From positions 1-40,797 of the forward strand of contig CAZCDQ010000006.1 in the NCBI GenBank assembly GCA_964497605.1: a stretch of DNA of 40,797 nucleotides, in the 5' to 3' direction. Positions 7,108 through 24,102 of the stretch are shown in pieces. How positions within the stretch are numbered: position 1 is the first letter of the stretch; the number at the start of each line of letters is the position of its first letter. A program made the translations under genes and the position numbers. The DNA is from an uncultured bacterium. GTDB lineage: Bacteria > Latescibacterota > Latescibacteria > Latescibacterales > Latescibacteraceae. Below the pieces are notes generated by a model that made no database searches, had not been told where the DNA came from, and saw nothing but the letters and a program-made list of their open reading frames with translations.

Positions 7108-7193
7108 TACCGCCGGAAACAGCCCTTTTATAGGGAAGCCCTGTAGAATTCGGCACAGAAATCAATACCGGAAAGAGGAGTGAAAAGCGCCCA

Positions 7194-8442: not shown

Positions 8443-8817
8443 CTATAATAAGTTTTTTATCCGTTCCAGTAATTCGTCAGGATTTATCGGCTTTTCAAGA
8501 AACTCATTGCTATTAATAAATTCCGTATCGATAGAAAAACCGGTCTGTTTGCTGATTGACGACATAAAGATGATCGGAATCGTTTTGAATTCGGTATCGT
8601 TTTTCAATTTATACCCGATATTAAATCCCTCCGTCGTGGTTTCCATCATGACATCGAGAAGGATTAAATCCGGCCGTTCATGTTCGAGCATCCGCATGCA
8701 GGTGTCGCCGCTGTCGGCGGTCACTATTTCATAGCCGTATTTTTCAAGCATAATGGCGATCAACTCAACAATTTCGATATCATCGTCAACAACCATTATT
8801 TTCGTTCTACCAATCAT
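8443..8817 (-). CDS. Single-domain response regulator (receiver)
   Basis: IMVVDDD, PDLILLDVMM, FLEKP. Confidence 0.93.
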   Translation of the reverse strand: MIGRTKIMVVDDDIEIVELIAIMLEKYGYEIVTADSGDTCMRMLEHERPDLILLDVMMETTTEGFNIGYKLKNDTEFKTIPIIFMSSISKQTGFSIDTEFINSNEFLEKPINPDELLERIKNLL

Positions 8818-8829: not shown

Positions 8830-9330
8830 TCAATTGCAGCAATTTTCTCCCTGTAGTGCCTGAATAGTTTCCCGAACAGAATCGCACGACAATAACATAC
8901 CTGCGGTTTTCCTAATACTCACGCTCACCTCCGGCGAAATATCTTCGCCGAACGCCGTGGATTTCGGCTGAAATCCGAGGATGAGAATATCTGCAGATGT
9001 TGCCTTTTCGAGAAATTCTGTGAACAGCCGAAGTGACCCGTGTGTCGATGAACTCTCCTTTGCGATTACCCCACTCGCAACAACCATAATATCGCCGGGA
9101 TTTCCCCCAAAATCCATCGTGTCTGCAATGATCACCGTATCGGGACGCAGTCCCGCGATAACACCGGTATAATTCTCGGGAGTATCCCCGGCATTTATTA
9201 CGTCAAACAAGGCTTTTCCTGCCGAATTACCGTTTTTCAGTAACTGCCCAAGCAGAATTCCGGCGCCGTCATCGCCGCGCAGGTCGTTTCCCAATGTCAC
9301 AATGACAACATTCTCGTCAGGCAATGCCAT
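8830..9330 (-). CDS. hycI: Hydrogenase maturation endopeptidase (HycI-like)
   Basis: LGNDLRGDDGAG, TPEN, STHG motifs. ATG at 9330 has an AAGGA RBS (track start 9351). Confidence 0.88.
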   Translation of the reverse strand: MALPDENVVIVTLGNDLRGDDGAGILLGQLLKNGNSAGKALFDVINAGDTPENYTGVIAGLRPDTVIIADTMDFGGNPGDIMVVASGVIAKESSSTHGSLRLFTEFLEKATSADILILGFQPKSTAFGEDISPEVSVSIRKTAGMLLSCDSVRETIQALQGENCCN

Positions 9331-9399
9331 GTGATAATTCCTTTTATGCAATGATAACAGATATGAAAGCAGAATGTGAATGATATTAGGTTAAAATCA

Positions 9400-10008
9400 T
9401 CACCATTCTTCTGTGAGATAGACCTTGCGGCGGCAATCGGGGCAAAGGATTTTAAATAGGTCTTCACGGGAGGGCTTTCCCTCGCTGAAAGCAGTTTGAA
9501 TGTCTTCTTTTTGTGAGAGTTTTTCCATTCCGGCGAGTATCAGCGTCGGATTTGCATAAGCAAGACTCCCAAGGCGTTTATACAGCCAGTTAAGGTGATC
9601 TTTCGTTCCGACAATATCGCCGCACATTTCGCAGAGCGCAAGCTCTTTTTCAACACTCACAAACATGTTTTCTCGGCTGAGATCAGCCAGATCGTATTCG
9701 GTCGTGTAATCGATACCATTCTCCGTTGTGCAGTATGCATGGCACTGACCGCAGAAATTGCAGATATCGTACCAGAGTTTCATTGTCCTCGTACCCGCTT
9801 CGACATCGTCGATGATTTCGATTGACCGCGAAGGACAGACCTCGCTGCATGCGCCGCATCCGATGCAGATATCGGGATCGAACTCCGGTTTTCCGCGGAA
9901 TTCTTTCTGTGGTTCAAGAATTTCCTTTGGAAATTTCGATGTGTACGGTCCCTGGACAAGCAGGATTTTTATTGCCTCCCAGAGTTCACGAAGTTTCGGT
10001 TTACGCAT
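9400..10008 (-). CDS. 2x[4Fe-4S] subunit, NuoI/HycF/MbhN-like, with extra C-terminal CxxC...CxxC
   Basis: FRGKP, CIGCGACSEVCP, CNFCGQCHAYC, then CEMC...CPDC. Confidence 0.9.
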   Translation of the reverse strand: MRKPKLRELWEAIKILLVQGPYTSKFPKEILEPQKEFRGKPEFDPDICIGCGACSEVCPSRSIEIIDDVEAGTRTMKLWYDICNFCGQCHAYCTTENGIDYTTEYDLADLSRENMFVSVEKELALCEMCGDIVGTKDHLNWLYKRLGSLAYANPTLILAGMEKLSQKEDIQTAFSEGKPSREDLFKILCPDCRRKVYLTEEW

Positions 10009-10034
10009 TTATCACGACTCCATAATTATGGATT

Positions 10035-10358
10035 TCATTTAACGTTGGCATATTCATCGACAATACTGCTTTCACACAGTTTCACTCCCGCCTTGTGCGC
10101 CGCCCGCGCAAGCGCATGTGCGGCGACCGGTGAGGTCAACAGTATGAACGCGGCGCAAAGAAGCGCTTTTATTCCCGCGGCGCCTATTCCCATGACGAAC
10201 GCGAGACCGATGAGAATCATGCATGTACCGAGCGTCACACACTTTGTCGCCGCCTGAAGTCGGTTGTACACATCGGGAAGCCTTACCAGCCCGATACATC
10301 CGAAAAGATCAAATAAAATGCCAATAATAAAAAATGCCAATCCGATATTTTCAGTCAT
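10035..10358 (-). CDS. mnhG: Mrp/Mbh antiporter subunit G (MnhG/MbhC)
   Basis: GLVRLPDVYNRLQAATK...LTSPVAAHALARAA. Confidence 0.92.
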   Translation of the reverse strand: MTENIGLAFFIIGILFDLFGCIGLVRLPDVYNRLQAATKCVTLGTCMILIGLAFVMGIGAAGIKALLCAAFILLTSPVAAHALARAAHKAGVKLCESSIVDEYANVK

Positions 10359-10632
10359 CGTAGCTTCGTCCTTCCAGATATTTTGCGAGGGCTATCGTGC
10401 CAATGAAACTTAAGAGCGCCCAGGTGATACCGATATTCATATAAAAGTCTTTCCCGGATATCCATGTCAGCATGGCGCAGAAACCGACCATCAGCGTACC
10501 GAGTATATCGATCGCTACAGTTCTGTCGGGCGCGGAGGGTCCTTTTGCGATACGGAACAGGCAAAGGAACCCGGAAAAAAGAAGTATAAGCATAAAAATC
10601 ATTGGCCAGGAAAAACCAATCTGATCAATCAT
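10351..10632 (-). CDS. mnhF: Mrp/Mbh antiporter subunit F (MnhF/MbhB)
   Basis: RIAKGPSAPDRTVAID...LLSFIGTIALAKYL. Confidence 0.92.
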   Translation of the reverse strand: MIDQIGFSWPMIFMLILLFSGFLCLFRIAKGPSAPDRTVAIDILGTLMVGFCAMLTWISGKDFYMNIGITWALLSFIGTIALAKYLEGRSYDD

Positions 10633-11114
10633 TCGAACACCTTTTTGAGTATTTTTTCAAAACGGCTTACGATAATTTCGGTCTGCCGTTCAGGATCGTC
10701 AACCGTAATATTAATCCAGTGAATATAGAGATCGCTGCCGATGATGTCCACTGTCAGCGTACCGGGCGTAAGAGTAATCGAATTGGCTAGGAATGTAATG
10801 CCGAGATCGGATTTAAGTCCGGTGGTGACTTTAACAATCCCCGGCCTGATGGGAACATCGAGATGAAGTACCCGATATGCAACATCCAGATTCGCTTTCA
10901 CCATGTGGATGAAAAAGACAGGGATATAATAAAAAAACCAGATTATTCTCACCGGACTCAGCATCATGGCCGCGTTGTCGAAATAGATATGTGACAGGAA
11001 TACAGTACATATTAACGCAATGATAAGCCCCGCAACGATATTCTGAATATCGGCCGACCAGGTAAGAAGCATCCAGACCGCAAATGTTACGAGATAATAC
11101 ATTATTTTTTTCAT
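10629..11114 (-). CDS. mnhE: Mrp/Mbh antiporter subunit E (MnhE/MbhA)
   Basis: ANLDVA...PGIV...LANSITLTPGTL...LYIHW. Confidence 0.93.
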   Translation of the reverse strand: MKKIMYYLVTFAVWMLLTWSADIQNIVAGLIIALICTVFLSHIYFDNAAMMLSPVRIIWFFYYIPVFFIHMVKANLDVAYRVLHLDVPIRPGIVKVTTGLKSDLGITFLANSITLTPGTLTVDIIGSDLYIHWINITVDDPERQTEIIVSRFEKILKKVFE

Positions 11115-12610
11115 TATAGCGACCCCAGCACATTAATGATATACATGCTCTTGTCCGTCAGCACCTGCTGTACCGGTTCGATAATATCAATGAAATACGG
11201 GCACGCAAGCCCGAATCCGATGCAGAATAGGGCGAGAATCAATAACGAACCCCACATGGGTGCGGGAACTTCTTTCACTTTCTCGAGTTTCGCGGGAAGT
11301 TCACCGAAAAATGCCATTTTCTGCACCTTTATAAACGATACGATTGTCATAAAACTTACAAATATTGTCACCGCCGCAAGATAATACGCGGCAGGTCCCA
11401 TAATGTCGGCGGCCTGCACTGCGGCAATCACAATAATCAGTTTGCTGAAAAATCCGCCGAACGGAGGAATCGCGGAAATCGACAGCGCCGCTACAGAGCA
11501 GGTTCGCGCGGTCACCGGCATCTTATTCCACAATCCGCCGAGTTTTTTTAGATCCCGAGTCCCCGTCGCGTATTCGACCGCTCCGGCACAGAGAAACAGA
11601 AGAGATTTGAAAAACGTATGATTCAGTGTGTGCAGAATACCGCCGATAATCCCAAGCGGCGTTCCGAGACCGATGGCAAATATGATGTATCCCATCTGGC
11701 TGATACTGTGGTAGGCCAACAGGCGTTTGAAATCCCACTGTCCGACTGCAAGAAAGACGCCGCCGACCATCGACAGTACACCAAGCGTAATGAATATCAC
11801 TGACACCGAATGACCAAACCCGAACACATTGAAAAATATCCGCGCCAGACAATATACACCAAGCGTTTTAATGAGCAGTCCCGAGAGCATAGCCGAGATC
11901 GGCGCGGGCGCGGAAGGATGCGCGTCGGGAAGCCACGCATGGAACGGCATGAGCGCGGCTTTGAGCCCGAATCCCATAAGGAACAGTGCGGATATCAGTT
12001 TCACCATCGTACCCGTGTCGCCGCTCAGAACCTGTCCGATATGCGCGAGATTCAATGTCCCGGTAATCGAGTATGTCAGCGCGATGCCGAACAGAATAAA
12101 GCTCGATGCGATCCCGCCGAGAACAAGATATTTGAACGAGGCCTCAAGCTCCTCGCTTTCGATCCCGAATGCCACGAGAGCATATGACGATATCGAGGCT
12201 ATTTCGAGAAACACAAACATGTTGAACAGATCGCCTGACGCGATTACGCCGTTCATGCCGGCGACCATCAGCATAAGCAGACAGTAGTATTTCACAGTGC
12301 TTGTAAAACGCCGCATATATTCAAGCGAATATAGAACCACGAGAAAACTAACCACTGCGACTATCAAATGGAAAAATACAGTCATGGAATCGGAATACAG
12401 ATTAATTCCGAAAGGCGGATTCCAGCCGCCGAGCGCGTAAATGAAAGTATCTTCGCCAATTCGGCCGAATGCAAATAGTACTAATAAACCGGTCGTTACC
12501 ATCGCAATGGTATCGGCAAGCCACGCTCTGAACAAACCGGCAAGAGGAATAACAAATGCAGCCCCAAGCGGCAGCGCTATGAATAACGGAAGGATGTGTT
12601 CCGAACTCAT
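11114..12610 (-). CDS. mnhD: Antiporter-like subunit MnhD/MbhH
   Basis: GGWNPPFGI, GDLFNMFVFLEI, PFHAWLPDAHPSAPAPISA, KRLLAYHSISQMG; highly hydrophobic throughout. Confidence 0.92.
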   Translation of the reverse strand: MSSEHILPLFIALPLGAAFVIPLAGLFRAWLADTIAMVTTGLLVLFAFGRIGEDTFIYALGGWNPPFGINLYSDSMTVFFHLIVAVVSFLVVLYSLEYMRRFTSTVKYYCLLMLMVAGMNGVIASGDLFNMFVFLEIASISSYALVAFGIESEELEASFKYLVLGGIASSFILFGIALTYSITGTLNLAHIGQVLSGDTGTMVKLISALFLMGFGLKAALMPFHAWLPDAHPSAPAPISAMLSGLLIKTLGVYCLARIFFNVFGFGHSVSVIFITLGVLSMVGGVFLAVGQWDFKRLLAYHSISQMGYIIFAIGLGTPLGIIGGILHTLNHTFFKSLLFLCAGAVEYATGTRDLKKLGGLWNKMPVTARTCSVAALSISAIPPFGGFFSKLIIVIAAVQAADIMGPAAYYLAAVTIFVSFMTIVSFIKVQKMAFFGELPAKLEKVKEVPAPMWGSLLILALFCIGFGLACPYFIDIIEPVQQVLTDKSMYIINVLGSL

Positions 12611-12957
12611 CCTTTCAATCTCCTTATCTGAAGAATGTCGAACGTCTCGTATTTTTCAAACAGTCTGAGACACAGTGATATAACCATAGCAGTGGTACCG
12701 AGTCCAATTACGATCGAGGTGACAATGAGCGCTTGCGGCAGGGGATCGACAAATGTCATCGCCTCGCGCGCAGCCTTTTCTGCATTGGTCACAATCGGAG
12801 CCGTTCCGCCGCTCCGGTATCCAACCAGAATTAACATGAGATTAACCGCATACTCAATAATTAAAAGCCCAATCACGATTTTCACCAGATTCTTCTTCGC
12901 GAGAACAGCGTATACGCCAAGTAACAGCAATACGGTACACAGAACATACGGACCCAT
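12607..12957 (-). CDS. mnhC: Mrp/Mbh subunit C (MnhC/MbhG)
   Basis: NLVKIVIG...VDPLPQALIVTSIVIG. Confidence 0.93.
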   Translation of the reverse strand: MGPYVLCTVLLLLGVYAVLAKKNLVKIVIGLLIIEYAVNLMLILVGYRSGGTAPIVTNAEKAAREAMTFVDPLPQALIVTSIVIGLGTTAMVISLCLRLFEKYETFDILQIRRLKG

Positions 12958-12959
12958 AT

Positions 12960-13403
12960 CTATCGTCTTTCCTTTGTTGTATCGTCAAAATTAAAAAAGG
13001 CATATGCCAGAAAAATCGCGAAAAGAAACACACCCACCTTGATCCCGACAATCAGGTTGCTCCATAAAATGGTTCCCGCCGATAAAAGCCGCATCGGCTC
13101 ACCCTCGGGCAGGTAGTTTTTCAGCATAAATCCACCAAACAGTCCAATACAAATAAATTCAAACAAGCTTAGTACCCCAAAACTATCCCACACATGCAAT
13201 ATCCGTGACCCCAGACTGCCCTCAGCTTTTGATGTTCCGAATGAGAGAATCAACAGAACAAATCCCGCCGCAAGTATGACTCCTCCGGCAAATCCGCCGC
13301 CCGGCGCAATATGACCATACAAAACAATACTCGCGCCGAACACAACAATGAATCCAAGCACCAGCCGAGAGATTGTTTTAACAATGACTGTCATTCCATT
13401 CAT
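12960..13403 (-). CDS. mnhB: Mrp/Mbh subunit B (MnhB/MbhF)
   Basis: GHIAPGGGFAGG, GIKV. Confidence 0.92.
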   Translation of the reverse strand: MNGMTVIVKTISRLVLGFIVVFGASIVLYGHIAPGGGFAGGVILAAGFVLLILSFGTSKAEGSLGSRILHVWDSFGVLSLFEFICIGLFGGFMLKNYLPEGEPMRLLSAGTILWSNLIVGIKVGVFLFAIFLAYAFFNFDDTTKERR

Positions 13404-13930
13404 AAGTCCCGCCTTCCTTTCTTTCTCAGGATCGCAATCGCACCGACAATCGAGGTGAATATGACCGTCGCCTCGCCGAGTGTGTCATACGCTCTAAATT
13501 CAAGAAGGATCGCACTGACTAAATTTCCGGCGCCGGAAATGGAGAAACCCTCGTTTATGTACTGCCGTGATACACTAAGGATTGGCCTCCCGAATTCGGG
13601 CATTTCTTTATAAGCTATCGCAGCAACCACAATGAACACACCTGCGAACACAAGCCCTGCGGCGGTTGCAAAAATCTCGCCGTGGCGGTAACGGTGAGCA
13701 ATGGTAACATCCTCACGGACTACAATCAGACGGATAAGCATGATAAGCGCGATAACCTCGACAGCCACCTGTACGATCGCAAGATCGGGCGCACCGAGGA
13801 TAAGAAATATGATAGAAAGCGCCATTCCCATCGCGCCGACCGAGATAACGCTTGAAAGTAAGTCTTTCGTCTCGATGGCGATGATCGCACCGATTATCAT
13901 GAACACGATTAGTCCGTATAAAAGTATCAT
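13400..13930 (-). CDS. Fused MbhD-like (DUF4040) + MbhE-like membrane subunit
   Basis: N-half LGAPDLAIVQVAVE; C-half NLVSAILLEFRAYDTLGE. Confidence 0.88.
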   Translation of the reverse strand: MILLYGLIVFMIIGAIIAIETKDLLSSVISVGAMGMALSIIFLILGAPDLAIVQVAVEVIALIMLIRLIVVREDVTIAHRYRHGEIFATAAGLVFAGVFIVVAAIAYKEMPEFGRPILSVSRQYINEGFSISGAGNLVSAILLEFRAYDTLGEATVIFTSIVGAIAILRKKGRRDL

Positions 13931-13942
13931 CTCGTCCGTTCC

Positions 13943-15778
13943 CTATCTCACAAGATAAAATATTATGAATAACAGTCCGATCAATACGAACGCCGCATAC
14001 GTCGACACAACGCCGTTATGAATATACCGAAGAACATCGACTAGTTTCCCGCCGTACCTTCCGCCGAGAACATACAGATCGAATACGCCCCGATCGGCAT
14101 CGTCATAGATTATCTTCATCGGAGCAAAATCATGAATAGTCTCGTAAAATCCCGTTCCCGGATACCGTGTCAGTTCCTCATCCAATTTCTCGCCGCCAAT
14201 AAACCGTGTTGTCGAACGGATTTTTGATGTTGTCGAGACAAGATAAACCATATATCCTGCCGCCAGCGAAACAATCATAAGCAGCGTTGCAAGGGACGGA
14301 CTCCACATCCCTGTAACAGTATCGATCATTGCGGGAGCATCGACGAATTCCGAGGAAACCATCGGTCCGATGATATATTTCAGCGGAATCTGGGCGAATA
14401 TACCGAACACGACACAGAGAAGCGCAAGCACAATCATCGGCAACGCCATCGAGAATCCAACCGATTCCACCTTTTTCAGCTTCTCCGGTTGTTTTCCGAG
14501 AAAAACCGAGTATATAACCTTAACAAACGACGCCAGTGTCAGCGCGCTGCCGAACATCGCGGCGAGAAGAAATACAGGCTGCCCTATTTCGATCGTTCCC
14601 TGATATACGAGCCATTTCGAAGCAAATCCGTTGAACGGCGGCACACCGGAAATGGCGAATGACGCGATAAGCATCGCAACAAACGTGACCGGCATCGATT
14701 TCGATAACCCTCCAAGCTCCTCAAGTTCGGTCGTGCCTGCCTGTTTTTCCACCGCACCCGCGCCAAGGAACAGGCAGCATTTGTAGATGGCATGATTCAG
14801 CATATGGAACAGTCCGCCGACAATACCGATCGCAACACCGGTGCCGATCCCCATCACCATATAGCCGACCTGACTGACCGCGTGAAACGCCAGTAGCTTT
14901 TTCAGATTATGCTGCAGAAGCGCCATCATGACTGCAAGGATAATGGTCACTGCACCGATAATAAGCAGCAGCATTTTTAGTCCGCTGTTCAGCGCAAACA
15001 TATCGAGCGAAATCCTTGCCAGCAGATAGATGCCGAGCAGTTTATCGAGCGACGCGGGCAGATATGCCATCACACTTGCGGGAGCGCTTTCGGCGGCTTT
15101 GGGAATCCATGTATGTCCGGGGATCGCGCCGGCTTTAACAAGCGCCCCGATAAGAAACATGACATAGGTCACAACCATGAGCGCCGAATCGACACCGACT
15201 GCATTAATACTGCTCATCTGAAGCGTCCCCACAATATGCCACAGCATCACTATACCCAGCATGAGTGCACAATCCGAAAACCCGATGATTACAAATGTCT
15301 TACCCGCCGCATCGCGCGCTCCGCCTCCGCCGATGGTGATAAGGAAAAACAACAGTAGTGAAACGATCTCCCAGCCGATTAGAAAAAAGATCAGGTTATC
15401 GGCCAGAATAGCCGCGGCGGCTCCTGCGGCAGTCAGGCAAATATAGCCGTAATACTCGCCAAGACGGTCTTTCCCTTTCATGAAACCGAAAGAATAGATA
15501 ACCACAAGCGCTGCGAATACGGACGCGGCAAACAGGATGAAAGAACTTAGCGTATCGGCTCTCATATCCGCAGAGAATGAAAATCCCGAAAGTGTGAACC
15601 ATATCCATGAACCGACAATTTCTTTACCGCCAAAGAATATCGCACCAGAATACACCGCCGCAATGACTGTTCCGGCAAGGGCAACGGTCTCCCGTATTCC
15701 TTTGAGCGCTTTCGGGATAATCAGTATGACCGCTCCGGCAATCAAAGGGACGATGATAGGCATAAACAAATTATTCAT
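13943..15778 (-). CDS. Second antiporter-like subunit (NuoL/MrpA N-part/HyfB-like) with C-terminal extension
   Basis: GWEIVS, KAGAIPGHTWIP, LKKLLAFHAVSQVGY, FHMLNHAIYK, GVPPFNGFASKW, terminal HNG...Y plus TM. Confidence 0.9.
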   Translation of the reverse strand: MNNLFMPIIVPLIAGAVILIIPKALKGIRETVALAGTVIAAVYSGAIFFGGKEIVGSWIWFTLSGFSFSADMRADTLSSFILFAASVFAALVVIYSFGFMKGKDRLGEYYGYICLTAAGAAAAILADNLIFFLIGWEIVSLLLFFLITIGGGGARDAAGKTFVIIGFSDCALMLGIVMLWHIVGTLQMSSINAVGVDSALMVVTYVMFLIGALVKAGAIPGHTWIPKAAESAPASVMAYLPASLDKLLGIYLLARISLDMFALNSGLKMLLLIIGAVTIILAVMMALLQHNLKKLLAFHAVSQVGYMVMGIGTGVAIGIVGGLFHMLNHAIYKCCLFLGAGAVEKQAGTTELEELGGLSKSMPVTFVAMLIASFAISGVPPFNGFASKWLVYQGTIEIGQPVFLLAAMFGSALTLASFVKVIYSVFLGKQPEKLKKVESVGFSMALPMIVLALLCVVFGIFAQIPLKYIIGPMVSSEFVDAPAMIDTVTGMWSPSLATLLMIVSLAAGYMVYLVSTTSKIRSTTRFIGGEKLDEELTRYPGTGFYETIHDFAPMKIIYDDADRGVFDLYVLGGRYGGKLVDVLRYIHNGVVSTYAAFVLIGLLFIIFYLVR

Positions 15779-15796
15779 TGTCTACGGTTCCTTTTA

Positions 15797-17032
15797 TTAC
15801 TTATTAAGCTCCGCTATAAGCTGTTTTGCTACCTGTTCGGCCGTCGGAATTTCATCTTTATGATTTTTATACCGTTCTGTCTTCTTTCGGGACAATTCAA
15901 CCAATTCCTGACCCGACATCACAATATTGTTTGTATCTTTCTCCAAAACCGCCATTCTTTCCGTACAACAATAACATGGGTCAACCGCAGCGGTAACTAA
16001 TGCCACATCGGAAATTGTATGGCCGATGCAGGTGGCCTTATATGATGGAATATTCATATAACTCGGTGCTCTGATTTTGTGACGCACCGGTGAATTACCG
16101 CCGTCCCCCCGAACATAATGATAGACCTCTCCGCGCGGCGCCTCGGCATGCCCGATACCTTCCCCGGGAGGAACAGATTTAATTTTTGCATCGATCTGCC
16201 CATCGGGCATATCATCCATACACTGTTTAATAATTTTTGCTGATTCAATGATCTCAAGCAAACGTACAGCCGCTTTGGCAAATACATCGCAACTGTCCCA
16301 GGTGATAACATTCCAATCGATTTTATCGTATGCGTCATAGGGGTCATCAGTGCGAATATCATCGGATATTCCGGAAGCCCTTACCGTCGGGCCAACTGTT
16401 CCATATGCAACGGCATCCTCTTTCGTAAGCACTCCGATACCTTTCGTGCGTGCATGGAGAACAGGATCGTCCAGCACCGCGCCGACCAGCATTTCGGTAG
16501 ATTTTATTACTTTATCCATTTCTTTGTGCACCCAAGGGAAATCGTCGTTATTTAAGTCCCGGCGAACTCCGCCCGGTTTCATCATCGCATAATGGTTACG
16601 GTTTCCCGAGAGTTTTTCGCAAACATCGAGTATCGGCTCGCGGTATTTCCATGCCCACATAAAAACTGTATCATAGCCGATAAAATGTCCCGCGAGACCA
16701 ACCCACAAGAGGTGGCTGTGAATTCGCTCGAGTTCACAAATAATCGGACGGATATATTGCGCGCGTGGGGGCGGCTGTACATCACAGAGATCTTCGACTC
16801 CTAAAACGTAAGCAATCGGATGTGAGGTAGAACAGATACCGCATATCCTTTCCACAATAAAGGCAGCCTGATCCCATGTTTTCATAGAACTGAGTTTTTC
16901 TATCCCCCGGTGCATGTAACCTATATTGATTTCAGCATCGACTACTGTTTCTCCCTCAACATACAGCTTGAAAAATTCCGCTTCCTCAAGCAGGGGGTGA
17001 AACGGGCCGAGCGGAACAATCGTTTTTTTCAT
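15797..17032 (-). CDS. Group-4 [NiFe]-hydrogenase large subunit (NuoD-like)
   Basis: GPFHP, GYMHRGIEK, L1 ERICGICS, EAPRGE, L2 DPCYCCTER followed by a tail of about 52 aa; the maturation protease is in the same operon. Confidence 0.95.
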   Translation of the reverse strand: MKKTIVPLGPFHPLLEEAEFFKLYVEGETVVDAEINIGYMHRGIEKLSSMKTWDQAAFIVERICGICSTSHPIAYVLGVEDLCDVQPPPRAQYIRPIICELERIHSHLLWVGLAGHFIGYDTVFMWAWKYREPILDVCEKLSGNRNHYAMMKPGGVRRDLNNDDFPWVHKEMDKVIKSTEMLVGAVLDDPVLHARTKGIGVLTKEDAVAYGTVGPTVRASGISDDIRTDDPYDAYDKIDWNVITWDSCDVFAKAAVRLLEIIESAKIIKQCMDDMPDGQIDAKIKSVPPGEGIGHAEAPRGEVYHYVRGDGGNSPVRHKIRAPSYMNIPSYKATCIGHTISDVALVTAAVDPCYCCTERMAVLEKDTNNIVMSGQELVELSRKKTERYKNHKDEIPTAEQVAKQLIAELNK

Positions 17033-17478
17033 TTTCCAGGCTCCTTGAAGTCACGTCGTAACGGATAAACTCCCTCGGGCCAGCTATCTGCCATAAGAAT
17101 CCTGTCTGGATTCGGATGGTTTATAAAAACTACTCCGAGAATTTCGTGAATCTCACGCTCGATCCAATTTGCGGCCAGATAAAAGACCGCGATTGACTCG
17201 ATTTCCGGTTTTGGTTTCGATACTATCGTCTTTAACGAAATAATCTGATGCTCTTTTGGGTACATGAAATGGTAGAGAATTTCAATTCCGTTTCTCGAAT
17301 CAACACCGGATGCGATACACAGCCTTCCGCCAAGGTCATCATACATATATCGGCAGATATCCGGCACATCGCGTTTATCGATAGTTACATACACTCTGCG
17401 TTCGTTTTTCACAAACACGTCCTTCAGCGCGTCCGGAAATTTGCTTTTTATTGCGTCAAGGGCTTTCGCATCGGGCAT
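17029..17478 (-). CDS. NuoC/MbhK-like subunit
   Basis: AANWIEREIHEILGVVFINHP...YPLRRDF. Confidence 0.92.
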   Translation of the reverse strand: MPDAKALDAIKSKFPDALKDVFVKNERRVYVTIDKRDVPDICRYMYDDLGGRLCIASGVDSRNGIEILYHFMYPKEHQIISLKTIVSKPKPEIESIAVFYLAANWIEREIHEILGVVFINHPNPDRILMADSWPEGVYPLRRDFKEPGK

Positions 17479-17490
17479 ATCATCATTCTC

Positions 17491-17922
17491 CTACAGGGTT
17501 TGCAGCGCTTTCACAACGCCGAGAATCATCGCTTCAGGTTTTGGCGGACATCCCGGCACATAAGCGACAATGCCATTCGGGTCGATCTCTTTCACCACTT
17601 TATCGAGCGGCCCAACACAGTTATAACTATCGCGGAACATGGTCATCGTAAGGGCGCATGAGCCGATTGCGAACACAATGCACGGTTTTGCGGTCTGCTT
17701 GTACAGCTCGACAAATCTCGGCAGCACATGACGGTTGACCGATCCTGAAACAAGCAGTGCATCCGCATGCCGCGGACTGCCGACAAGTTTAATGCCAAAC
17801 CGCTCGACATCGAACCGCGGGGTCAGAAGGTCGAGGATTTCGATATCGCAGTTATTGCAGGGAGACAGCGCGACATGATACACCCACGGCGATTTCTTCA
17901 GTCCCCACATGGTCAGGCTCAT
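17491..17922 (-). CDS. Hydrogenase small subunit (NuoB/MbhJ-like)
   Basis: CNNCDIE, FDVERFG, SPRHAD, GSC, VPGCPPKP. Confidence 0.95.
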   Translation of the reverse strand: MSLTMWGLKKSPWVYHVALSPCNNCDIEILDLLTPRFDVERFGIKLVGSPRHADALLVSGSVNRHVLPRFVELYKQTAKPCIVFAIGSCALTMTMFRDSYNCVGPLDKVVKEIDPNGIVAYVPGCPPKPEAMILGVVKALQTL

Positions 17923-17962
17923 TATTTTTCCCCCGATTTTATAGCAATAATTCCTTTAACCG

Positions 17963-18892
17963 TTACAATCCAACATACGCCAGCGCAAGACCGATCAGCG
18001 CCAGCACAGTCATTGTGCCCCAGAAAAAGCTTACTGCCTGATCGATTCGTACCCGCGGATTCGTATTCCGAATGAGCACAATGAGTACTATTATCGCAAC
18101 GTATTTCAACACCGCCCAGAGAATTGAAATCCCTTCGAGACGTATCCCCCCCATCAACATCGCGACTATGAACAGCGGCATGACCGCAAGCATCATTGCT
18201 TTTGTCATTTCGATAACTGCGAGCGGAGGTCCGGAATATTCGGTGATAACACCGCCCATGATCTCCTGCTCCGCCTCGGGCGCGTCGAACGGCACAAACC
18301 CCAATTTTGCCTGTGTGCAGAGCAGAAGCACAATAAACCCGAGTACACCAGAGATACTTGCGATATTTACACTGCCCATGACTTGCGAATCGATGATGCT
18401 TCCTATACTGAAATCGAATCCCGATTTCATAATAACCATAATAACAACAATCAGAAACGGCAACTCATAGCCAAGCAGGAGTTTCATCTCTCGTGACGCT
18501 CCGACTGCGGCAATGGGATTTCCCGAGGCACTTGCACCAATAATCAGACCGGTCGCGGGAACAGTCAGCAGATAGACCAGTACAATCACATCACCGACAA
18601 AACTCTGATCCGGCCAGATAAGGACATGAACAAGCAGTACCGAGGCAAGAATCATACCCGCAAATCCGAATAACGGCGCCAGCAAGAAAACAGTTCGTCC
18701 CGACCCCTCAGGAACCAGTGTCTCTTTACCAAGCAGTTTGAGTATATCTGCAATCGGCTGGTACCACGGCGGTCCGACACGGGCATGTACCAACGCGGTC
18801 ACCTTACGGTCGATCCAGCTTGTAACAAGTCCGAGAACAAGCACTCCGACAGCGATTAAGATGAATTTAACGATCAACATGATTCCGGCCAC
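17963..18892 (-). CDS. NuoH/MbhM/HycD-like membrane subunit
   Basis: DRKVTA..HARVGPP..QP..D..KL..KE, GASRE, PFDAPEAEQE..GG...EYSG, PRVRIDQ. Confidence 0.95.
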   Translation of the reverse strand: MAGIMLIVKFILIAVGVLVLGLVTSWIDRKVTALVHARVGPPWYQPIADILKLLGKETLVPEGSGRTVFLLAPLFGFAGMILASVLLVHVLIWPDQSFVGDVIVLVYLLTVPATGLIIGASASGNPIAAVGASREMKLLLGYELPFLIVVIMVIMKSGFDFSIGSIIDSQVMGSVNIASISGVLGFIVLLLCTQAKLGFVPFDAPEAEQEIMGGVITEYSGPPLAVIEMTKAMMLAVMPLFIVAMLMGGIRLEGISILWAVLKYVAIIVLIVLIRNTNPRVRIDQAVSFFWGTMTVLALIGLALAYVGL

Positions 18893-18942
18893 AGACTCTA
18901 CACTCCGCTTTTATGTTGCATTTATCATGATTCCCGATTCCG

Positions 18943-19431
18943 TCACGGTCTCCGCACAATCGACTTGTATCCTACCGCATGCGAGCCGAGGACCATCTCA
19001 CCCTGCTCAACGTAAGCATCGGCGACTTCCTCGTACCTGAGCGCGCCGGTCGGGCAGGTTGCGACACATGCCGGGTCTTTATTATCCGCAAGCCTCTCGG
19101 TGCACAGGTCGCATTTCCCCATGGAGAACACCGCGAGCTTCATGCCTCTGCTCAGGACACCGAACGGGCAGGCAATTACACAGCTCTTACATCCTGTACA
19201 CCGGAATGAATTACGGCGAACGATGCCGTCCTCGTCCCGTGTCATTGCCTCATTCGGGCACGCCGCCACACATGCCGGTTCCTTGCAGTGCCTGCACACA
19301 ACCGGAAGATTACCCACACCCTCGACTTTGGCGCTCTGAAGCGTGAGCGTATCATTACGTACCCGGTGGCAGGCAACCGAATGAGACTGGCATCCTATGC
19401 ACAAATCAAGCTGGACAAAAAGCTTTTTCAC
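18943..19431 (-). CDS. Four-cluster ferredoxin (HycB/HydN/DmsB-like)
   Basis: CIGCQSHSVAC, CRHCKEPACVAACP, CTGCKSCVIACP, CDLC...PACVATCP. GTG at 19431 overlaps the upstream TGA (track start 19461). Confidence 0.9.
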   Translation of the reverse strand: MKKLFVQLDLCIGCQSHSVACHRVRNDTLTLQSAKVEGVGNLPVVCRHCKEPACVAACPNEAMTRDEDGIVRRNSFRCTGCKSCVIACPFGVLSRGMKLAVFSMGKCDLCTERLADNKDPACVATCPTGALRYEEVADAYVEQGEMVLGSHAVGYKSIVRRP

Positions 19432-20855
19432 GATGCATCCTTTTTCTGCAATTGCATCCACGCCGTATTATCGGTCAGTGAGCCGTCCGAATAGCTCAGG
19501 ACAGTCGACCTGTAAACAGGCTGTGGTGTTTTATGTTCAATCTCTTTCAAAAGCGAACCGATCCGGCTTTCCGAGGGTTCCGTCCTCATTATATTCGTCT
19601 TTACTTCGCCTTCCGAAAGGGTTTGATTCTTTCCCGCCACAAGTTTTCGTATGATATCGCCGTATGAAAGCGCTCCTCCCGTTGGTTCGAGGACCGGCGT
19701 TCTCAATTTCCCGTTATATGTTCCCGCCGTTTCAAGCCAAAGTGCGGTCGGCATAACAATGTCTGCAAGCGTAGTCGTTTCGTTTGCGAATGGCGCTCCC
19801 GCAGCGATGAAATCAAGATTTCCACGGATGGTTTTCGCATCATTTTTCGACATACCTCTAAAGATATCCGCACCTAGTACAAGAAGTGAATTCAACTTCT
19901 CGTCCATCGCGGCGCCGATTACATCCGCAACTGATTGTACTTTACCGTCCGTTTCGTTCAGACCGGCAACGATACCCTCGGCATTGCCATAAGTGTAAAG
20001 CGAGAACAGCTTTTTGCCGTTTCCGGCCGCCTCTACAATCAGCGAGGCAAACTCAGCCGCGACCGGATCCTGTGATTCGATAATCACAACCGCCTGATCG
20101 GCTTTCACAAATTTCTCCGCAAGGGCTTTTACCGCGCCATCCTTAACCGCGGGATACGATGTTCTCACCGCCTCTTTCCACAAGGGGCCGCTGTATCCGG
20201 ACAGATCGACGACCGCTTTCAATAGTTCCGCAAGTGTCACACGCACGTTTCCCTCTATATGGGTTGAGGCAAAACGCGCTGTCCGGTTCGGCGATTCCGA
20301 AACAACCGCAAGCGTATTCGCTCGATGGGCATATTTTGCGTTCAACGCTGGTCCCGCAATGACCGGGCCAACCTCGAACGGATCGCCGACCGCAATCGTG
20401 CATTTCGATTTTTCGACATCCTCAATCGTTGCCGGCTCGCCGGTTCCAGATGCGGCAATTGCTCTCAGAACCGCGTCGTCCCCGGTCGCGAAATGAACCG
20501 CAACGCTAGCGTTCAGGCACTCTTTCGCGTACATAATTGCCAAAGAAACATCCTCGAGCGACGCATCGCCACTGAGAACGACCGCAGCCGAACCCTCCGA
20601 CTTCCCGAGCGCTTTCGCTGTCGCAGATATTGCATCCTCCCACGTAATGACTGCCCCTTTTTCAGTCGGCTCACTCAGCCGCATGGGATGATTGAGAAGA
20701 TCGAGCATATAATTTCCTTTGCTGCACAAGCTGCCGCTGCATATCGGATCGTTCGAAAGATATTCAAGGTTGACCGCTCCACCGAAATCGGATTCGATCG
20801 CGAATCCGCATCCAAGCGAACAGAACAGACAAATATTTTCCTGCGATTTCATCAT
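19428..20855 (-). CDS. Truncated molybdopterin-oxidoreductase-fold protein (FdhF/NuoG C-part-like) with N-terminal [4Fe-4S]
   Basis: CLFCSLGCG...LCSKG, HPMRL, ETTTLADIVMPTALWLETAGTY. Only 475 aa; no recognisable Mo-ligand motif. Confidence 0.8.
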   Translation of the reverse strand: MMKSQENICLFCSLGCGFAIESDFGGAVNLEYLSNDPICSGSLCSKGNYMLDLLNHPMRLSEPTEKGAVITWEDAISATAKALGKSEGSAAVVLSGDASLEDVSLAIMYAKECLNASVAVHFATGDDAVLRAIAASGTGEPATIEDVEKSKCTIAVGDPFEVGPVIAGPALNAKYAHRANTLAVVSESPNRTARFASTHIEGNVRVTLAELLKAVVDLSGYSGPLWKEAVRTSYPAVKDGAVKALAEKFVKADQAVVIIESQDPVAAEFASLIVEAAGNGKKLFSLYTYGNAEGIVAGLNETDGKVQSVADVIGAAMDEKLNSLLVLGADIFRGMSKNDAKTIRGNLDFIAAGAPFANETTTLADIVMPTALWLETAGTYNGKLRTPVLEPTGGALSYGDIIRKLVAGKNQTLSEGEVKTNIMRTEPSESRIGSLLKEIEHKTPQPVYRSTVLSYSDGSLTDNTAWMQLQKKDAS

Positions 20856-20867
20856 ACGTTCGTCCCT

Positions 20868-21695
20868 TTACATACCGAACACATTGGAACAATCTTTTAT
20901 AAGCTCGTAATTCATGTCGGGGCCGTCCTTGCACAGATAATAGGGGCCGATGTTGCATCTGCCGCATTTTCCCGTTCCGCAACTCATCCGTCGGTTCATA
21001 GACAGATATATTTGTTTCGGTTTATAGCCGATTTCCATAAGTTTCATTGTTACAAATTTCAGCATGATCTCCGGACCGCAGGAAATCGCGCAACTATTTG
21101 AAATATCGATATCCACATTATCCAGAAGCGTGGTAACTACCCCAACATTGCTAGTCCATCCCGGTGCCGCAACATCGATGGTGGGTGTGAATTCCACATT
21201 GGGTATCTTGGCCCAGGAATCATACATGCTGCGGTATACCAGATCGTTCGGTGTCCGTGCGCCGTATTTGATATAGACTTTTTTGAAACTGTCGATTTCG
21301 TCGAACAACACATACAGAAGTGATCTGAGCGGAGCAAGCCCAACACCGCCGCCAACAACCAACACTTCCGTTCCCCGAAGCTTATCGATCGGATAACCTT
21401 TTCCGAACGGACCGCGAAGGCCCACCGTGTCGCCAGCCTTAACCGAAAGCAATTTGTCGGTGACTTTCCCCATACGCAGAATGGTAAATTCAATTGTTTC
21501 GGTGCGGTTGGGCGATGATGACGGTGTAAACGGCGCTTCGCCGACACCCGGCATTGTCACCTGCATAAATTGTCCTGCTTTGAATTTCATTTCCTGTTCG
21601 GGCCGGATAACGACCGTTTTAATCGTTGGAGTTTCCTCGATCACGTTTCCCACTGTCCCGGTCAGGGGCATATACGGATTTTGAACGTCGCTCAT
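20868..21695 (-). CDS. FAD/NAD(P)-binding [2Fe-2S] subunit (AsrB / sulfhydrogenase gamma-like)
   Basis: GQF..V...GVGEAP, GLRGPFG, GGGVGLAPLRS, CGP, RRMSCGTGKCGRC...CKDGP. Confidence 0.92.
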   Translation of the reverse strand: MSDVQNPYMPLTGTVGNVIEETPTIKTVVIRPEQEMKFKAGQFMQVTMPGVGEAPFTPSSSPNRTETIEFTILRMGKVTDKLLSVKAGDTVGLRGPFGKGYPIDKLRGTEVLVVGGGVGLAPLRSLLYVLFDEIDSFKKVYIKYGARTPNDLVYRSMYDSWAKIPNVEFTPTIDVAAPGWTSNVGVVTTLLDNVDIDISNSCAISCGPEIMLKFVTMKLMEIGYKPKQIYLSMNRRMSCGTGKCGRCNIGPYYLCKDGPDMNYELIKDCSNVFGM

Positions 21696-21696
21696 G

Positions 21697-22770
21697 TTAT
21701 TTTTTTGCTCCTACGGTTGACGAGTCGAGCGCTTTCATCACTTTTCTCATGTCGATTTTCCCCATACAGCCTTCGATACATCGTCCGCAGCCACTGCATG
21801 CCTCAAATCCAAAGTTTGTCGGAAAATAATCGAACTTATGGAGGTACCGGTGACGAAACCGTTCCATCAGTCCAAGACGCGGTGAACCTCCCCCCGCCAT
21901 TTTAGAATATCCGGCGTAGGAACACGCGTCCCATTCCTTGATTCTACTGTATGTGCCGGATTCATTTTGCCGGTCGTACAAAAGGAAACAATGACAGGTC
22001 GGGCATGAAAAAAGGCATGCCCCGCATCCGATGCAGGCGCTGACATGCTCGTACCAGCCGTCGCTTTCGCGCTGAATTTCGAGCAGTTCCTGGCGGGATT
22101 TCGAGAGTTCGTATTCTTTGTTGATATCTTTAACTTTTTCTTTTGCCGCCGCGCGTTTTTTATCTCGTTCGGCGATGAGTTCGGCCGGAACATCAGCAAA
22201 CAGTTCCTTTTTTTCCGCGACAATGTCCACACCCTTGTCGGAACCGACCTCAACGATATAGCCGTTATCTGCGCTGCTAATATTCAGATCGAATCCCTCC
22301 GCTGCATACGGCGCAATTCCCGCAAGCGTACACAGGCAGTTCTCGCGGGGATAATCACAGTCTGCGGAAACGATAACTGTGTTCGCGCGCCTGTTCTGAT
22401 AGAAGATATCTGTAAACTCCTCCTGAAGAAACACCGCATCGAGCGATTTCACAGACTCAACATCGCATGCCGCCGCACCGACAATTGTTACAGGTTCGTC
22501 GGACAGCGCCGGTGTATCGCCGCTTCCGGCCGGATATTCAGCGACTTTGGTTCGGCCAGCAAACAGAAACGTTTTCAACGGATCGGATGGACGGTATCCG
22601 CGGAACACGTAATCATCACCCTCAGTTCGTTCAGCATAGGGATAGCGAACGATTCCCTTGTGGTCTTCAGCCTCTCCTGGGATATAAATTTTGCTATTTT
22701 TTCCCAGGACATCGAGCAACCGCTCAAAATCCGTGCCGCTTATGAAATATGTTTTGGCATGATCACTCAT
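21697..22770 (-). CDS. Fe-S subunit (AsrA / sulfhydrogenase beta-like)
   Basis: ACD...LD, D..Y..RR, C.....NCLC, CIGCGACLFSCPTCHCF, WDAC, CSGCGRCIEGC. Confidence 0.9.
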   Translation of the reverse strand: MSDHAKTYFISGTDFERLLDVLGKNSKIYIPGEAEDHKGIVRYPYAERTEGDDYVFRGYRPSDPLKTFLFAGRTKVAEYPAGSGDTPALSDEPVTIVGAAACDVESVKSLDAVFLQEEFTDIFYQNRRANTVIVSADCDYPRENCLCTLAGIAPYAAEGFDLNISSADNGYIVEVGSDKGVDIVAEKKELFADVPAELIAERDKKRAAAKEKVKDINKEYELSKSRQELLEIQRESDGWYEHVSACIGCGACLFSCPTCHCFLLYDRQNESGTYSRIKEWDACSYAGYSKMAGGGSPRLGLMERFRHRYLHKFDYFPTNFGFEACSGCGRCIEGCMGKIDMRKVMKALDSSTVGAKK

Positions 22771-23942: not shown

Positions 23943-24102
23943 TGTTCTGAGCGTTTGCCCTCCATTGCCGGGATTAAAAATGTCGTATGCCGATACTCCC
24001 GCCTCGAACGGGATACAGAGAGATTCCTGTGGTTGGCAAGTTACCATTTTGTAATCATTGTCATATATATTTGAATTGTTAATCATTAAGTATTTTTCTA
24101 TA

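What the first reader, a model, noticed from the sequence alone, without database searches (positions are those of the whole stretch)
8830..22770. Candidate new respiratory complex: NAD(P)H-flavin module + non-catalytic FdhF-like subunit + group-4 hydrogenase + full Mrp antiporter
Seen: 18 co-oriented, closely spaced or overlapping genes in the order AsrA-like, AsrB-like, FdhF/NuoG-like, HycB-like, NuoH, NuoB, NuoC, NiFe large subunit, NuoL-like, MbhD/E, MnhB, C, D, E, F, G, HycF-like, HycI. Established: AsrA/B-type pairs serve as the NAD(P)H module of group-3b sulfhydrogenases and sulfite reductase; FdhF-HycB-HycF is the input wire of formate hydrogenlyase; Mrp-coupled Mbh uses ferredoxin. 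No AsrC or group-3b alpha/delta partner occurs in this window. Inference: an ion-translocating H2:NAD(P) oxidoreductase, for example ion-gradient-driven H2 evolution from NAD(P)H or the reverse. It would resemble a complex I analogue with a non-NuoEF input. I cannot confirm that it is undescribed.
Basis: partly seen in the sequence, partly recalled or inferred. Interest (0 to 1): 0.88.

Follow-up and report, generated by a model that had tools for sequence, protein, structure and literature searches.

The report
Hun-type membrane hydrogenase operon, already described
This is a real, well conserved operon for a membrane-bound nickel-iron hydrogenase joined to a sodium/proton antiporter and a flavin input module, but the same gene cluster has already been described from genomes under the name Hun, and nobody has yet tested what feeds it electrons.

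Summary
The large subunit keeps its Ni-Fe ligands. The FdhF-like protein keeps only its [4Fe-4S] site: it lacks the Mo-ligand residue and the cap domain.

The module AsrA-AsrB-(FdhF-like)-HycB always sits beside the hydrogenase core. AsrB lies directly upstream in 37 of 37 metagenome loci and the large subunit downstream in 18 of 18.

The architecture is not undescribed. Glass et al. (bioRxiv 10.1101/536078) named this operon Hun, including the CGIC/CYCC signature and the optional molybdopterin-like insert. Two other papers note it (PMC6349859; bioRxiv 10.1101/765248). No biochemistry was found.

The window is a new Hun member, from a Latescibacterota genome out of a microbial mat. Glass et al. 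propose ferredoxin as donor. My sequence evidence favours NAD(P)H: the NAD(P)-binding motifs are invariant, and the nearest solved relatives are the beta and gamma subunits of Pyrococcus sulfhydrogenase I. This is untested.

New here: a conserved sigma-54 promoter with a two-component system, and insert-free Hun operons in the same phylum.

The parts
25770..26912 (-). Sensor histidine kinase (HisKA + HATPase_c)
   Evidence: Pfam. A homologue sits at the same relative place in L014, L017, L051, L052 and L054.
24363..25739 (-). NtrC-type sigma-54-dependent response regulator (receiver + Sigma54_activat + HTH_8)
   Evidence: Pfam and NCBIfam. Conserved upstream of the operon in L011-L014 and L017.
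24241..24276 (-). Two GGGG-N7-CCCC inverted repeats, candidate binding sites for the activator
   Evidence: The same kind of palindrome lies at a similar distance upstream of the -24/-12 site in L013, L014 and L017. That these are enhancer sites is my inference.
24104..24118 (-). Sigma-54-type -24/-12 promoter (GGCATTAGAATTGC)
   Evidence: GGCA-N7-T(T/A)GC sits at the same place in 5 of 6 loci checked; L013 has a TAGC variant. rpoN is present in the genome. On its own the match is no rarer than chance in the window: 34 matches found against 33 expected at 2 mismatches.
22794..24107 (-). Hybrid receiver-histidine kinase, 23 nt upstream of asrA-like. The start is uncertain: TTG 24107 overlaps the promoter, and an in-frame ATG lies at 24086.
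   Evidence: Pfam. Conserved directly upstream of the AsrA-like gene in L011-L014, L017, L046, L051-L054 and L082.
21697..22770 (-). HunA: AsrA / sulfhydrogenase-beta-like iron-sulfur protein
   Evidence: Best solved relative is 9nez_B, at 2e-42. All Cys are conserved against it and across 31 homologues.
20868..21695 (-). HunB: AsrB / sulfhydrogenase-gamma-like FAD, NAD(P)H and [2Fe-2S] protein
   Evidence: Best solved relative is 9nez_C, at 1.9e-46. GGGxGxAPxR, CGP and four Cys are invariant in 32 sequences.
19428..20855 (-). Non-catalytic FdhF/NuoG-like insert that keeps the FS0 [4Fe-4S] site
   Evidence: The Sec/Cys column holds no Cys in 31 sequences, the next column is Asp in 31 of 31, and the four FS0 Cys are present in 31 of 31. 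The model has pLDDT 93 and a bis-MGD fold.
18943..19431 (-). HunC: HycB/CooF-like protein with four cluster motifs. The first motif is CxxCxxHxxxC in this clade.
17963..18892 (-). HunD: NuoH-like membrane subunit
17491..17922 (-). HunE: NuoB-like small subunit with four Cys
17029..17478 (-). HunF: NuoC-like
15797..17032 (-). HunG: group-4 [NiFe] large subunit, reading RICGICSTSH ... DPCYCCTER plus a C-terminal extension
   Evidence: Nearest solved relatives are HycE 7z0s and MbhL 6cfw.
13943..15778 (-). HunH: NuoL/MrpA-like antiporter subunit
10035..13930 (-). Mrp-type module: MbhD/E, MnhB, MnhC, MnhD, MnhE, MnhF, MnhG (HunI to HunO)
9400..10008 (-). HunP: HycF/NuoI-like two-cluster ferredoxin subunit with a C-terminal four-Cys tail
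8830..9351 (-). HycI-type maturation endopeptidase
8443..8817 (-). Single-domain response regulator, 12 nt downstream of hycI
   Evidence: A 59% identical homologue sits at the same place in L012.

Best explanation
[quoted passage not shown] This member carries the optional molybdopterin-fold insert.

Most likely electron path: NAD(P)H binds the AsrB-like subunit (FAD, then [2Fe-2S]). Electrons pass through the [4Fe-4S] clusters of the AsrA-like subunit, then probably the single FS0 cluster of the FdhF-like scaffold, then the four clusters of the HycB-like subunit, the two clusters of the HycF-like subunit and the cluster of the NuoB-like subunit, and reach the Ni-Fe site.

The NuoH-like, NuoL-like and Mrp subunits couple this near-equilibrium reaction to H+/Na+ movement. 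By my estimate (standard potentials recalled, Nernst calculation mine) NAD(P)H to H2 breaks even near 60 Pa H2. The enzyme could therefore conserve a little energy at low H2 and use the ion gradient to push H2 out at higher H2, or run backwards to make NAD(P)H.

Expression is switched by a two-component system acting at a sigma-54 promoter.

Shown: gene content, metal-ligand motifs, synteny, loss of the FDH active site, motif conservation.
Inferred: subunit contacts, the donor, the direction, ion coupling, the regulation.
For: Identity as Hun:
- The gene order is the same as the 16-subunit operon of Glass et al., including HunAB like AsrAB, no AsrC, the CGIC/CYCC large-subunit signature and a molybdopterin 4Fe-4S protein between HunB and HunC.

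The input module belongs to the hydrogenase:
- In metagenome loci with enough flank, AsrB is directly upstream of the FdhF-like gene in 37 of 37.
- AsrA+AsrB are upstream in 31 of 31.
- HycB is directly downstream in 39 of 40.
- The large subunit is downstream in 18 of 18.
- Genome loci show the same order.
- The operon's AsrA-like gene is the only Fer4_22 gene found in the genome.

NAD(P)H as partner:
- HunB has FAD_binding_6 and NAD_binding_1 domains.
- Its best solved relative is the gamma subunit of Pyrococcus sulfhydrogenase I. NCBIfam labels that enzyme family NADPH-dependent.
- GGGxGxAPxR, CGP and the four [2Fe-2S] Cys are invariant in 32 sequences that are 47-73% identical to the window's.

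FdhF-like as a relay or scaffold:
- The four FS0 Cys are present in 31 of 31, although identity falls to 21%.
- There is no Mo ligand and no cap domain.

A functional hydrogenase:
- Ni ligands are intact, HycI is in the operon, and HypD is in the genome.

Regulation:
-.
Against: - No assay, transcript or structure exists for any Hun complex in what I could search.
- Glass et al. propose ferredoxin, not NAD(P)H, as the donor.
- By my recollection, every biochemically characterised group-4 hydrogenase uses a low-potential donor (ferredoxin, formate, CO).
- The genome makes reduced ferredoxin (PFOR), and I found no other ferredoxin-linked hydrogenase in it: no FeFe hydrogenase and no second group-4 enzyme.
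- The genome already has a soluble Hox-type hydrogenase with a NuoEF-type module, which by homology would be NAD(H)-linked. An NADH outlet therefore exists without Hun.
- Insert-free Hun operons exist in the same phylum, so the FdhF-like protein is not needed for the module to connect. Its place in the wire is a guess.
- The sigma-54 match alone is no rarer than chance in the window.
Confidence: 0.5

Rival explanations
1. Ferredoxin-coupled Hun, as published. Reduced ferredoxin donates to the iron-sulfur clusters of HunA/HunC, H2 is evolved and H+/Na+ are pumped, as in Mbh. The flavin subunit is a relay or has a side role.
For: - Proposed by Glass et al.. Matheus Carnevali et al. likewise hypothesise an Mbh-like function.
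- The genome has PFOR, and I found no other ferredoxin-linked hydrogenase in it.
- The energetics are comfortably exergonic (established knowledge for Mbh, recalled).
Against: - The NAD(P)-binding motifs of HunB are invariant across 32 divergent sequences, which is hard to explain if no nucleotide binds.
- Rnf-type genes are present and can already take electrons from ferredoxin.
- By my recollection, Mbh needs no such input module.
Confidence: 0.28
2. Dual-donor (confurcating-like) enzyme. NAD(P)H at HunB and reduced ferredoxin at the HunA/HunC clusters are used together to make H2.
For: - A flavin module and many exposed-type clusters sit in one input arm.
- The genome lacks the usual confurcating FeFe hydrogenase.
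Against: - HunB is of the PyrK/NfnA type. By my recollection, the flavin in that type is not the bifurcating one.
- No NfnB/GltD-like or HydB-like subunit is in the operon.
Confidence: 0.1
3. Membrane-bound sulfhydrogenase. The beta/gamma-like pair reduces elemental sulfur or polysulfide with H2 or with the ion gradient.
For: - The nearest solved relatives are the beta and gamma subunits of sulfhydrogenase I.
- The sample is a microbial mat, where sulfur species are common (general knowledge).
Against: - By my recollection, sulfur reduction by sulfhydrogenase I is not regarded as its physiological role.
- Nothing sulfur-specific lies in the operon or its flanks.
Confidence: 0.05
4. Formate hydrogenlyase, with the FdhF-like protein oxidising formate.
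For: - The order FdhF-like, HycB-like ... HycF-like, HycI resembles FHL.
- E. coli HycE is the best solved match to the large subunit.
Against: - The Sec/Cys Mo-ligand column holds Gly here and no Cys in any of 31 homologues; the adjacent His is Asp in 31 of 31.
- There is no Molydop_binding domain.
- No formate channel gene was seen in the window.
- Insert-free operons exist.
Confidence: 0.02

Closest known systems
Hun supercomplex (Glass et al., bioRxiv 10.1101/536078; predicted from genomes of Atribacteria, Firmicutes, Omnitrophica, Elusimicrobia, Bacteroidetes, Kosmotoga)
   Same: Same gene order and subunit set, HunA to HunP. HunAB are AsrAB-like, with no AsrC. The large subunit carries CGIC/CYCC. 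An Mrp-like module is present. An optional molybdopterin 4Fe-4S protein sits between HunB and HunC.
   Different: The host phylum differs: Latescibacterota, with close relatives in Planctomycetota MAGs. I could not see Glass et al.'s Table S5 or Figure 3A to check whether these phyla are already listed there. A HycI gene and two-component genes flank the operon here. I read the donor as NAD(P)H, where they proposed ferredoxin.
'Enigmatic' group-4 hydrogenase of Saganbacteria RX5A (Matheus Carnevali et al. 2019, PMC6349859) and the 'Mbh-Mrp-oxidoreductase type' of Elusimicrobia (Meheust et al., bioRxiv 10.1101/765248)
   Same: Hydrogenase subunits, Mrp-like subunits, an unclassifiable molybdopterin protein, cooF-like, asrA and asrB in one region. 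For the Elusimicrobia type, an oxidoreductase module of unknown function.
   Different: I read only the text passages. The supplementary figures that show the gene order could not be opened, so identity of order is inferred from the wording.
Pyrococcus furiosus Mbh (6cfw) and the Mrp-linked hydrogenases of Thermococcales
   Same: NuoH/B/C/D/I-like core plus an Mrp-derived membrane module. MbhL is one of the two best solved matches to the large subunit.
   Different: By my recollection, Mbh takes electrons straight from ferredoxin and has one antiporter-like subunit. Here there is a four-protein input arm and two antiporter-like subunits.
E. coli formate hydrogenlyase (7z0s/7z0t)
   Same: The wire FdhF, HycB, HycF, small subunit, HycE, and a HycI protease. 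HycE is the top solved match.
   Different: The FdhF-like protein here lacks the Mo ligand and the cap domain. An AsrAB-like module is added. The membrane arm is Mrp-type.
Pyrococcus furiosus sulfhydrogenase I (9nez), group 3b
   Same: The beta and gamma subunits are the nearest solved relatives of HunA and HunB, with all cluster Cys and the nucleotide motifs kept.
   Different: The catalytic pair here is of group 4 / complex I type and membrane-bound, not the group-3 alpha/delta pair.
Non-catalytic molybdopterin-fold subunits: the NuoG C-terminal domain, and the molybdopterin-fold subunits of StnABC (8oh5_C) and Nfn-ABC (9bov_A)
   Same: The FdhF-like model superposes on these as well as on true formate dehydrogenases and nitrate reductases, with TM about 0.64-0.78 normalised to the query. 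That the NuoG, StnC and NfnC domains are cofactor-free is recalled.
   Different: It is a free-standing 475-aa protein that keeps only the FS0 cluster site.

Membership tests
Hun complex (Glass et al.) | HunA and HunB similar to AsrA and AsrB, at the head of the hydrogenase operon | tested here: met
   synteny.
Hun complex (Glass et al.) | AsrC missing | tested here: met
   No TIGR02912 match over the cut-off in the 90% complete genome, and none in the window.
Hun complex (Glass et al.) | Large-subunit metal-site signature CGIC ... CYCC | tested here: met
   RICGICSTSH and DPCYCCTER. The L1 motif is present in all 24 large subunits found in the metagenome loci. In the 22 whose frame is complete, L2 is DPCYCCT[EN]R in 20 and DPCYSCTER in 2.
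Hun complex (Glass et al.) | Sixteen subunits in the order input, NuoH/B/C/D-like, NuoL-like, Mrp-like, HycF-like | tested here: met
   compared with the text of section 8. Their Figure 3 is not held.
Hun complex (Glass et al.) | HydDB class 4g, but distant from other 4g | not testable with these tools
One search shows only that HycE and MbhL are about equally near.
Formate hydrogenlyase (group 4a/4b) | Catalytic formate dehydrogenase with a Sec/Cys Mo ligand, the adjacent His and the MGD cap domain | tested here: not met
   Gly and Asp at these columns. No PF01568 domain.
Group 3b sulfhydrogenase | Group-3 alpha and delta subunits partnered with beta and gamma | tested here: not met
   The large subunit scores as NuoD/HycE/MbhL type. 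The only other NiFe enzyme in the genome is Hox-type, with a NuoEF module.
Anaerobic sulfite reductase AsrABC | Siroheme subunit AsrC | tested here: not met
Respiratory complex I | NuoD without Ni ligands, NuoEF input, quinone site | tested here: not met
   Ni ligands are present, HycI is present, and no NuoE/F is in the operon. This is the only Complex1_49kDa gene found in the genome.
Mbh (group 4d, ferredoxin-coupled, Mrp-linked) | Core plus Mrp module, with ferredoxin donating directly and no separate input subunits | tested here: inconclusive
   The core and the Mrp module are present. The extra four-protein input arm departs from Mbh. The donor cannot be tested in silico.

The most novel reading that the evidence does not exclude
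Hun is an ion-translocating NAD(P)H:H+ oxidoreductase: a complex I analogue that ends at a Ni-Fe site instead of a quinone and starts at a sulfhydrogenase-type flavin module instead of NuoEF. It would let fermenters that lack confurcating FeFe hydrogenases vent NAD(P)H as H2, paying with or earning Na+/H+ gradient according to the ambient H2. The molybdopterin-fold insert would be a cofactor-less relay, comparable to the C-terminal domain of NuoG.
Probability: 0.4. Interest if true: 0.8.

Novelty: new member of a known kind. Interest (0 to 1): 0.42.

Why it matters
Hun-type operons are widespread. Glass et al. report them in Atribacteria, Firmicutes, Omnitrophica, Elusimicrobia, Bacteroidetes and Kosmotoga.

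No biochemical test turned up in my literature searches.

As a finding from this window it is ordinary in one sense: the architecture is already in print.
- the case for NAD(P)H from motif conservation;
- the demonstration that the FdhF-like insert is non-catalytic but keeps its cluster;
- the sigma-54 / two-component control;
- the variable membrane arm.

Tried and rejected
Complex prediction. FdhF-like + HycB-like + AsrA-like as partner, each as an alignment of 30-31 rows. Scores were 0.43, 0.28 and 0.00, so there is no verdict. It counts neither for nor against binding.

Expression. Three DNA holders from one study (microbial mat metagenome); no RNA holder is listed.

Subgroup classification. 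I could not do a HydDB classification or build a rooted tree with reference subgroups, because no reference sequences were at hand. The FastTree of 32 large subunits is midpoint-rooted, was read without support values and has no outgroup. I use it only to say that insert-free and insert-bearing operons are interleaved.

Fold search. It cannot separate catalytic from non-catalytic molybdopterin-fold proteins; both match at TM about 0.7.

Formate hydrogenlyase reading: rejected.

Sigma-54 site. The pattern search alone is not significant: 34 matches found, 33 expected. I keep the site only because of its position and its conservation.

Intrinsic terminators. The scan gave nothing convincing at the operon's ends. 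Its best hit is the palindrome I read as an activator site.

Literature.
- Two searches on Latescibacteria with hydrogenase or hydrogen terms, and the passages I then read in the Caldithrix abyssi and Ace Lake papers, turned up no description of this operon.
- The claim that no biochemistry is in print rests on searches, in a library that lacks most subscription journals.
- The supplements of PMC6349859 and of the two preprints were not available. They may list Latescibacterota or Planctomycetota carriers, or show the gene order.

Full report
**Observation**

The window carries 18 co-oriented, tightly packed genes on the minus strand from 22770 to 8830. By the ORF coordinates, no gap exceeds 50 nt and several genes overlap by 1 to 8 nt.

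In order of transcription:
- AsrA / sulfhydrogenase-beta-like;
- AsrB / sulfhydrogenase-gamma-like (FAD_binding_6, NAD_binding_1, 2Fe-2S domain);
- a 475-aa FdhF/NuoG-like protein;
- a HycB/CooF-like protein;
- NuoH, NuoB, NuoC;
- a NuoD/NiFe large subunit;
- a NuoL-like subunit, MbhD/E, MnhB, C, D, E, F, G;
- a HycF/NuoI-like protein, and HycI.

The large subunit reads RICGICSTSH and DPCYCCTER with a C-terminal extension. The small subunit has its four Cys. The HycF-like protein has two full cluster motifs. This is therefore a hydrogenase, not an Ehr or complex I derivative.

**Organism and genome context**

The contig belongs to a 90% complete Latescibacterota genome of the same genus as Candidatus Latescibacter anaerobius. 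The DNA is held by runs of a microbial mat metagenome. What I found in the genome:
- The operon's AsrA-like gene is the only Fer4_22 protein.
- No AsrC reaches its cut-off.
- No FeFe hydrogenase was found.
- The operon's large subunit is the only NuoD-type gene, so there is no complex I.
- Also present: a soluble Hox-type hydrogenase with a fused NuoEF subunit, Rnf/Nqr-type genes, PFOR, HypD and rpoN.

**The FdhF-like protein**

A profile of five orthologues matches true formate dehydrogenases only over domains I to III. The Sec/Cys Mo-ligand column aligns with Gly125 and the following His with Asp126.

In a 31-sequence alignment that falls to 21% identity:
- the ligand column holds G, A, S, N, H or D, and never Cys;
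- the next column is Asp in 31 of 31;
- the four Cys of the FS0 [4Fe-4S] site are present in 31 of 31.

No Molydop_binding domain is found in the window's protein. Longer relatives of 550-615 aa do carry a C-terminal extension. Pfam records PF01568 for one of them, P0045. By eye they too lack a Cys at the ligand position.

The AlphaFold model is confident (pLDDT 93) and has the bis-MGD enzyme fold. It superposes about as well on nitrate reductases and formate dehydrogenases as on NuoG and on the molybdopterin-fold subunits of StnABC and Nfn-ABC.

I read it as a cofactor-less scaffold that keeps one cluster.

**Synteny**

In genomes:
- The whole operon recurs in the same order in four relatives from three genera of the same family. 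The upstream kinase and sigma-54 activator recur with it. Genes are missing only where contigs end.
- It recurs in an uncultured bacterium and in two Planctomycetota MAGs.
- Within the phylum the FdhF-like gene is patchy: 6 of 168 genomes, all in one family.

In metagenomes:
- A scan seeded with two longer FdhF-like relatives returned 58 loci, of which 49 carry an FdhF-like gene at 80 bits or more.
- Among loci with enough flank, AsrB lies directly upstream in 37 of 37, AsrA+AsrB upstream in 31 of 31, HycB directly downstream in 39 of 40, and the large subunit downstream in 18 of 18.
- All 24 large subunits found have the L1 motif. The 22 whose frame is complete read DPCY[CS]CT[EN]R.
- These loci were chosen by the FdhF-like protein, not by context, so the association is real. 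It says nothing about how often Hun lacks the insert.

Insert-free operons:
- AsrA-like genes occur in 25 of 168 Latescibacterota genomes.
- I fetched five further loci. Four show AsrA-AsrB-HycB-NuoH... with no FdhF-like gene.
- The insert is therefore optional.

The membrane arm also varies:
- full Mrp, as here;
- NuoL-like plus MnhC/D only;
- no antiporter-like subunit at all, for example L028, where a TPR protein sits between HycB and NuoH and HypA follows HycF.

A midpoint-rooted FastTree of 32 large subunits, read without support values, places the three insert-free operons as sister to an insert-bearing one, inside a tree that otherwise consists of insert-bearing operons.

**Prior art**

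The architecture is in print.
- Glass et al. (bioRxiv 10.1101/536078; abstract and section 8 read) describe a 16-subunit 'Hun' Ni-Fe hydrogenase-Na+/H+ antiporter supercomplex. HunAB are like AsrAB and AsrC is missing. HunG is classed 4g by HydDB but is distant from other 4g sequences. The signature is CGIC-CYCC. [quoted passage not shown] They list Atribacteria, Firmicutes, Omnitrophica, Elusimicrobia, Bacteroidetes and cultured Kosmotoga as carriers. They propose ferredoxin as donor.
- Matheus Carnevali et al. 2019 (PMC6349859; passages) call the same set of genes in Saganbacteria 'enigmatic' and guess an Mbh-like function.
- Meheust et al. (bioRxiv 10.1101/765248; passages) speak of an 'Mbh-Mrp-oxidoreductase type' whose oxidoreductase is of unknown function.
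- Searches found no assay.
- I could not open the figures or supplements of these papers.

**Mechanism**

The nearest solved relatives of HunA and HunB are the beta and gamma subunits of Pyrococcus sulfhydrogenase I (9nez; 2e-42 and 1.9e-46). All cluster Cys and the flavin and nucleotide motifs align with them.

Across 32 HunB sequences, from both insert-bearing and insert-free operons, GGGxGxAPxR, CGP and the four [2Fe-2S] Cys are invariant.

I therefore favour NAD(P)(H) as the soluble partner. The proposed wire runs from HunB through HunA, perhaps FS0 of the insert, HunC, HunP and HunE to the Ni-Fe site.

The thermodynamic argument is mine and rests on recalled standard potentials: break-even falls near 60 Pa H2, so ion coupling could work in either direction.

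The ferredoxin reading stays a serious rival. The cell makes reduced ferredoxin, and I found no other ferredoxin-linked hydrogenase in it. The complex prediction gave no verdict.

**Regulation**

A GGCA-N7-TTGC element lies in the gap between the NtrC-type activator gene and the hybrid kinase gene (24104-24118). The same element sits at the same place in 5 of 6 loci checked, and the sixth has a near match.

GGGG-N7-CCCC palindromes lie about 140-160 bp upstream in the window. Similar palindromes are seen in three other loci.

The hybrid kinase gene ends 23 nt before hunA, and a receiver gene follows hycI after 12 nt. The unit is therefore probably kinase, 18 genes, receiver. That a sigma-54 phosphorelay switches the operon is my inference.

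**Verdict**

- The complex is a new member of an already described but uncharacterised kind.

Noticed in passing
L028:8113-16492 (also L031, L033, L057): A variant of the same operon has no antiporter-like subunit. The order is AsrA, AsrB, FdhF-like, HycB, a 227-aa TPR protein, NuoH, NuoB, NuoC, large subunit, HycF, then HypA. The input arm and catalytic core are therefore kept while the energy-coupling arm is swapped or lost.
   Followed up: partly
L079, L080, L082, L083 (other Latescibacterota families): These are Hun operons without the FdhF-like insert. L082 has the hybrid kinase upstream. L079 has a sigma-54 activator and a kinase downstream on the other strand. The link to two-component regulation therefore extends beyond the window's family.
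   Followed up: partly
window 18943-19431 (HycB-like), residue 27 of the 172-aa frame: The first cluster motif reads CxxCxxHxxxC, with an invariant His in the window's clade (8 of 8 sequences). The consensus of the wider 31-sequence set has Cys there. This may be a His-ligated cluster that shifts the potential.
   Followed up: no
window 9400-10008 (HycF-like), C-terminal 80 residues: Besides the two ferredoxin motifs there are two CxxC pairs (CEMC and CPDC), as in a zinc ribbon or a further metal site.
   Followed up: no
G000 contig C137 (L084:3704-8830): A second hydrogenase of Hox type: a fused NuoE-NuoF subunit, HoxU, small subunit, a 481-aa large subunit and a protease.
   Followed up: partly
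window 27814-32316: An oxidative-stress cluster on the minus strand: KatG catalase-peroxidase, two overlapping frames with rubrerythrin and rubredoxin domains (30139-31227 and 31151-31822, overlapping by 77 nt, perhaps one gene with a frameshift or a mis-called start), and a Fur-family regulator. The 2-kb bin 28001-30000, which lies within katG, has 55.5% G+C, against 37-51% in the other bins of the window.
   Followed up: no
window 632-4621: A 1329-aa protein made of at least ten CarboxypepD_reg / transthyretin-like repeats.
   Followed up: no
window 5465-7976: An ECF sigma factor gene followed by two paralogous genes for zinc-ribbon + PspC-domain proteins. A tRNA-Thr (TGT) lies at 8078-8154 on the plus strand, just past the operon's end.
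   Followed up: no
window 35147-37847: A TrkH/TrkA potassium uptake pair.
   Followed up: no
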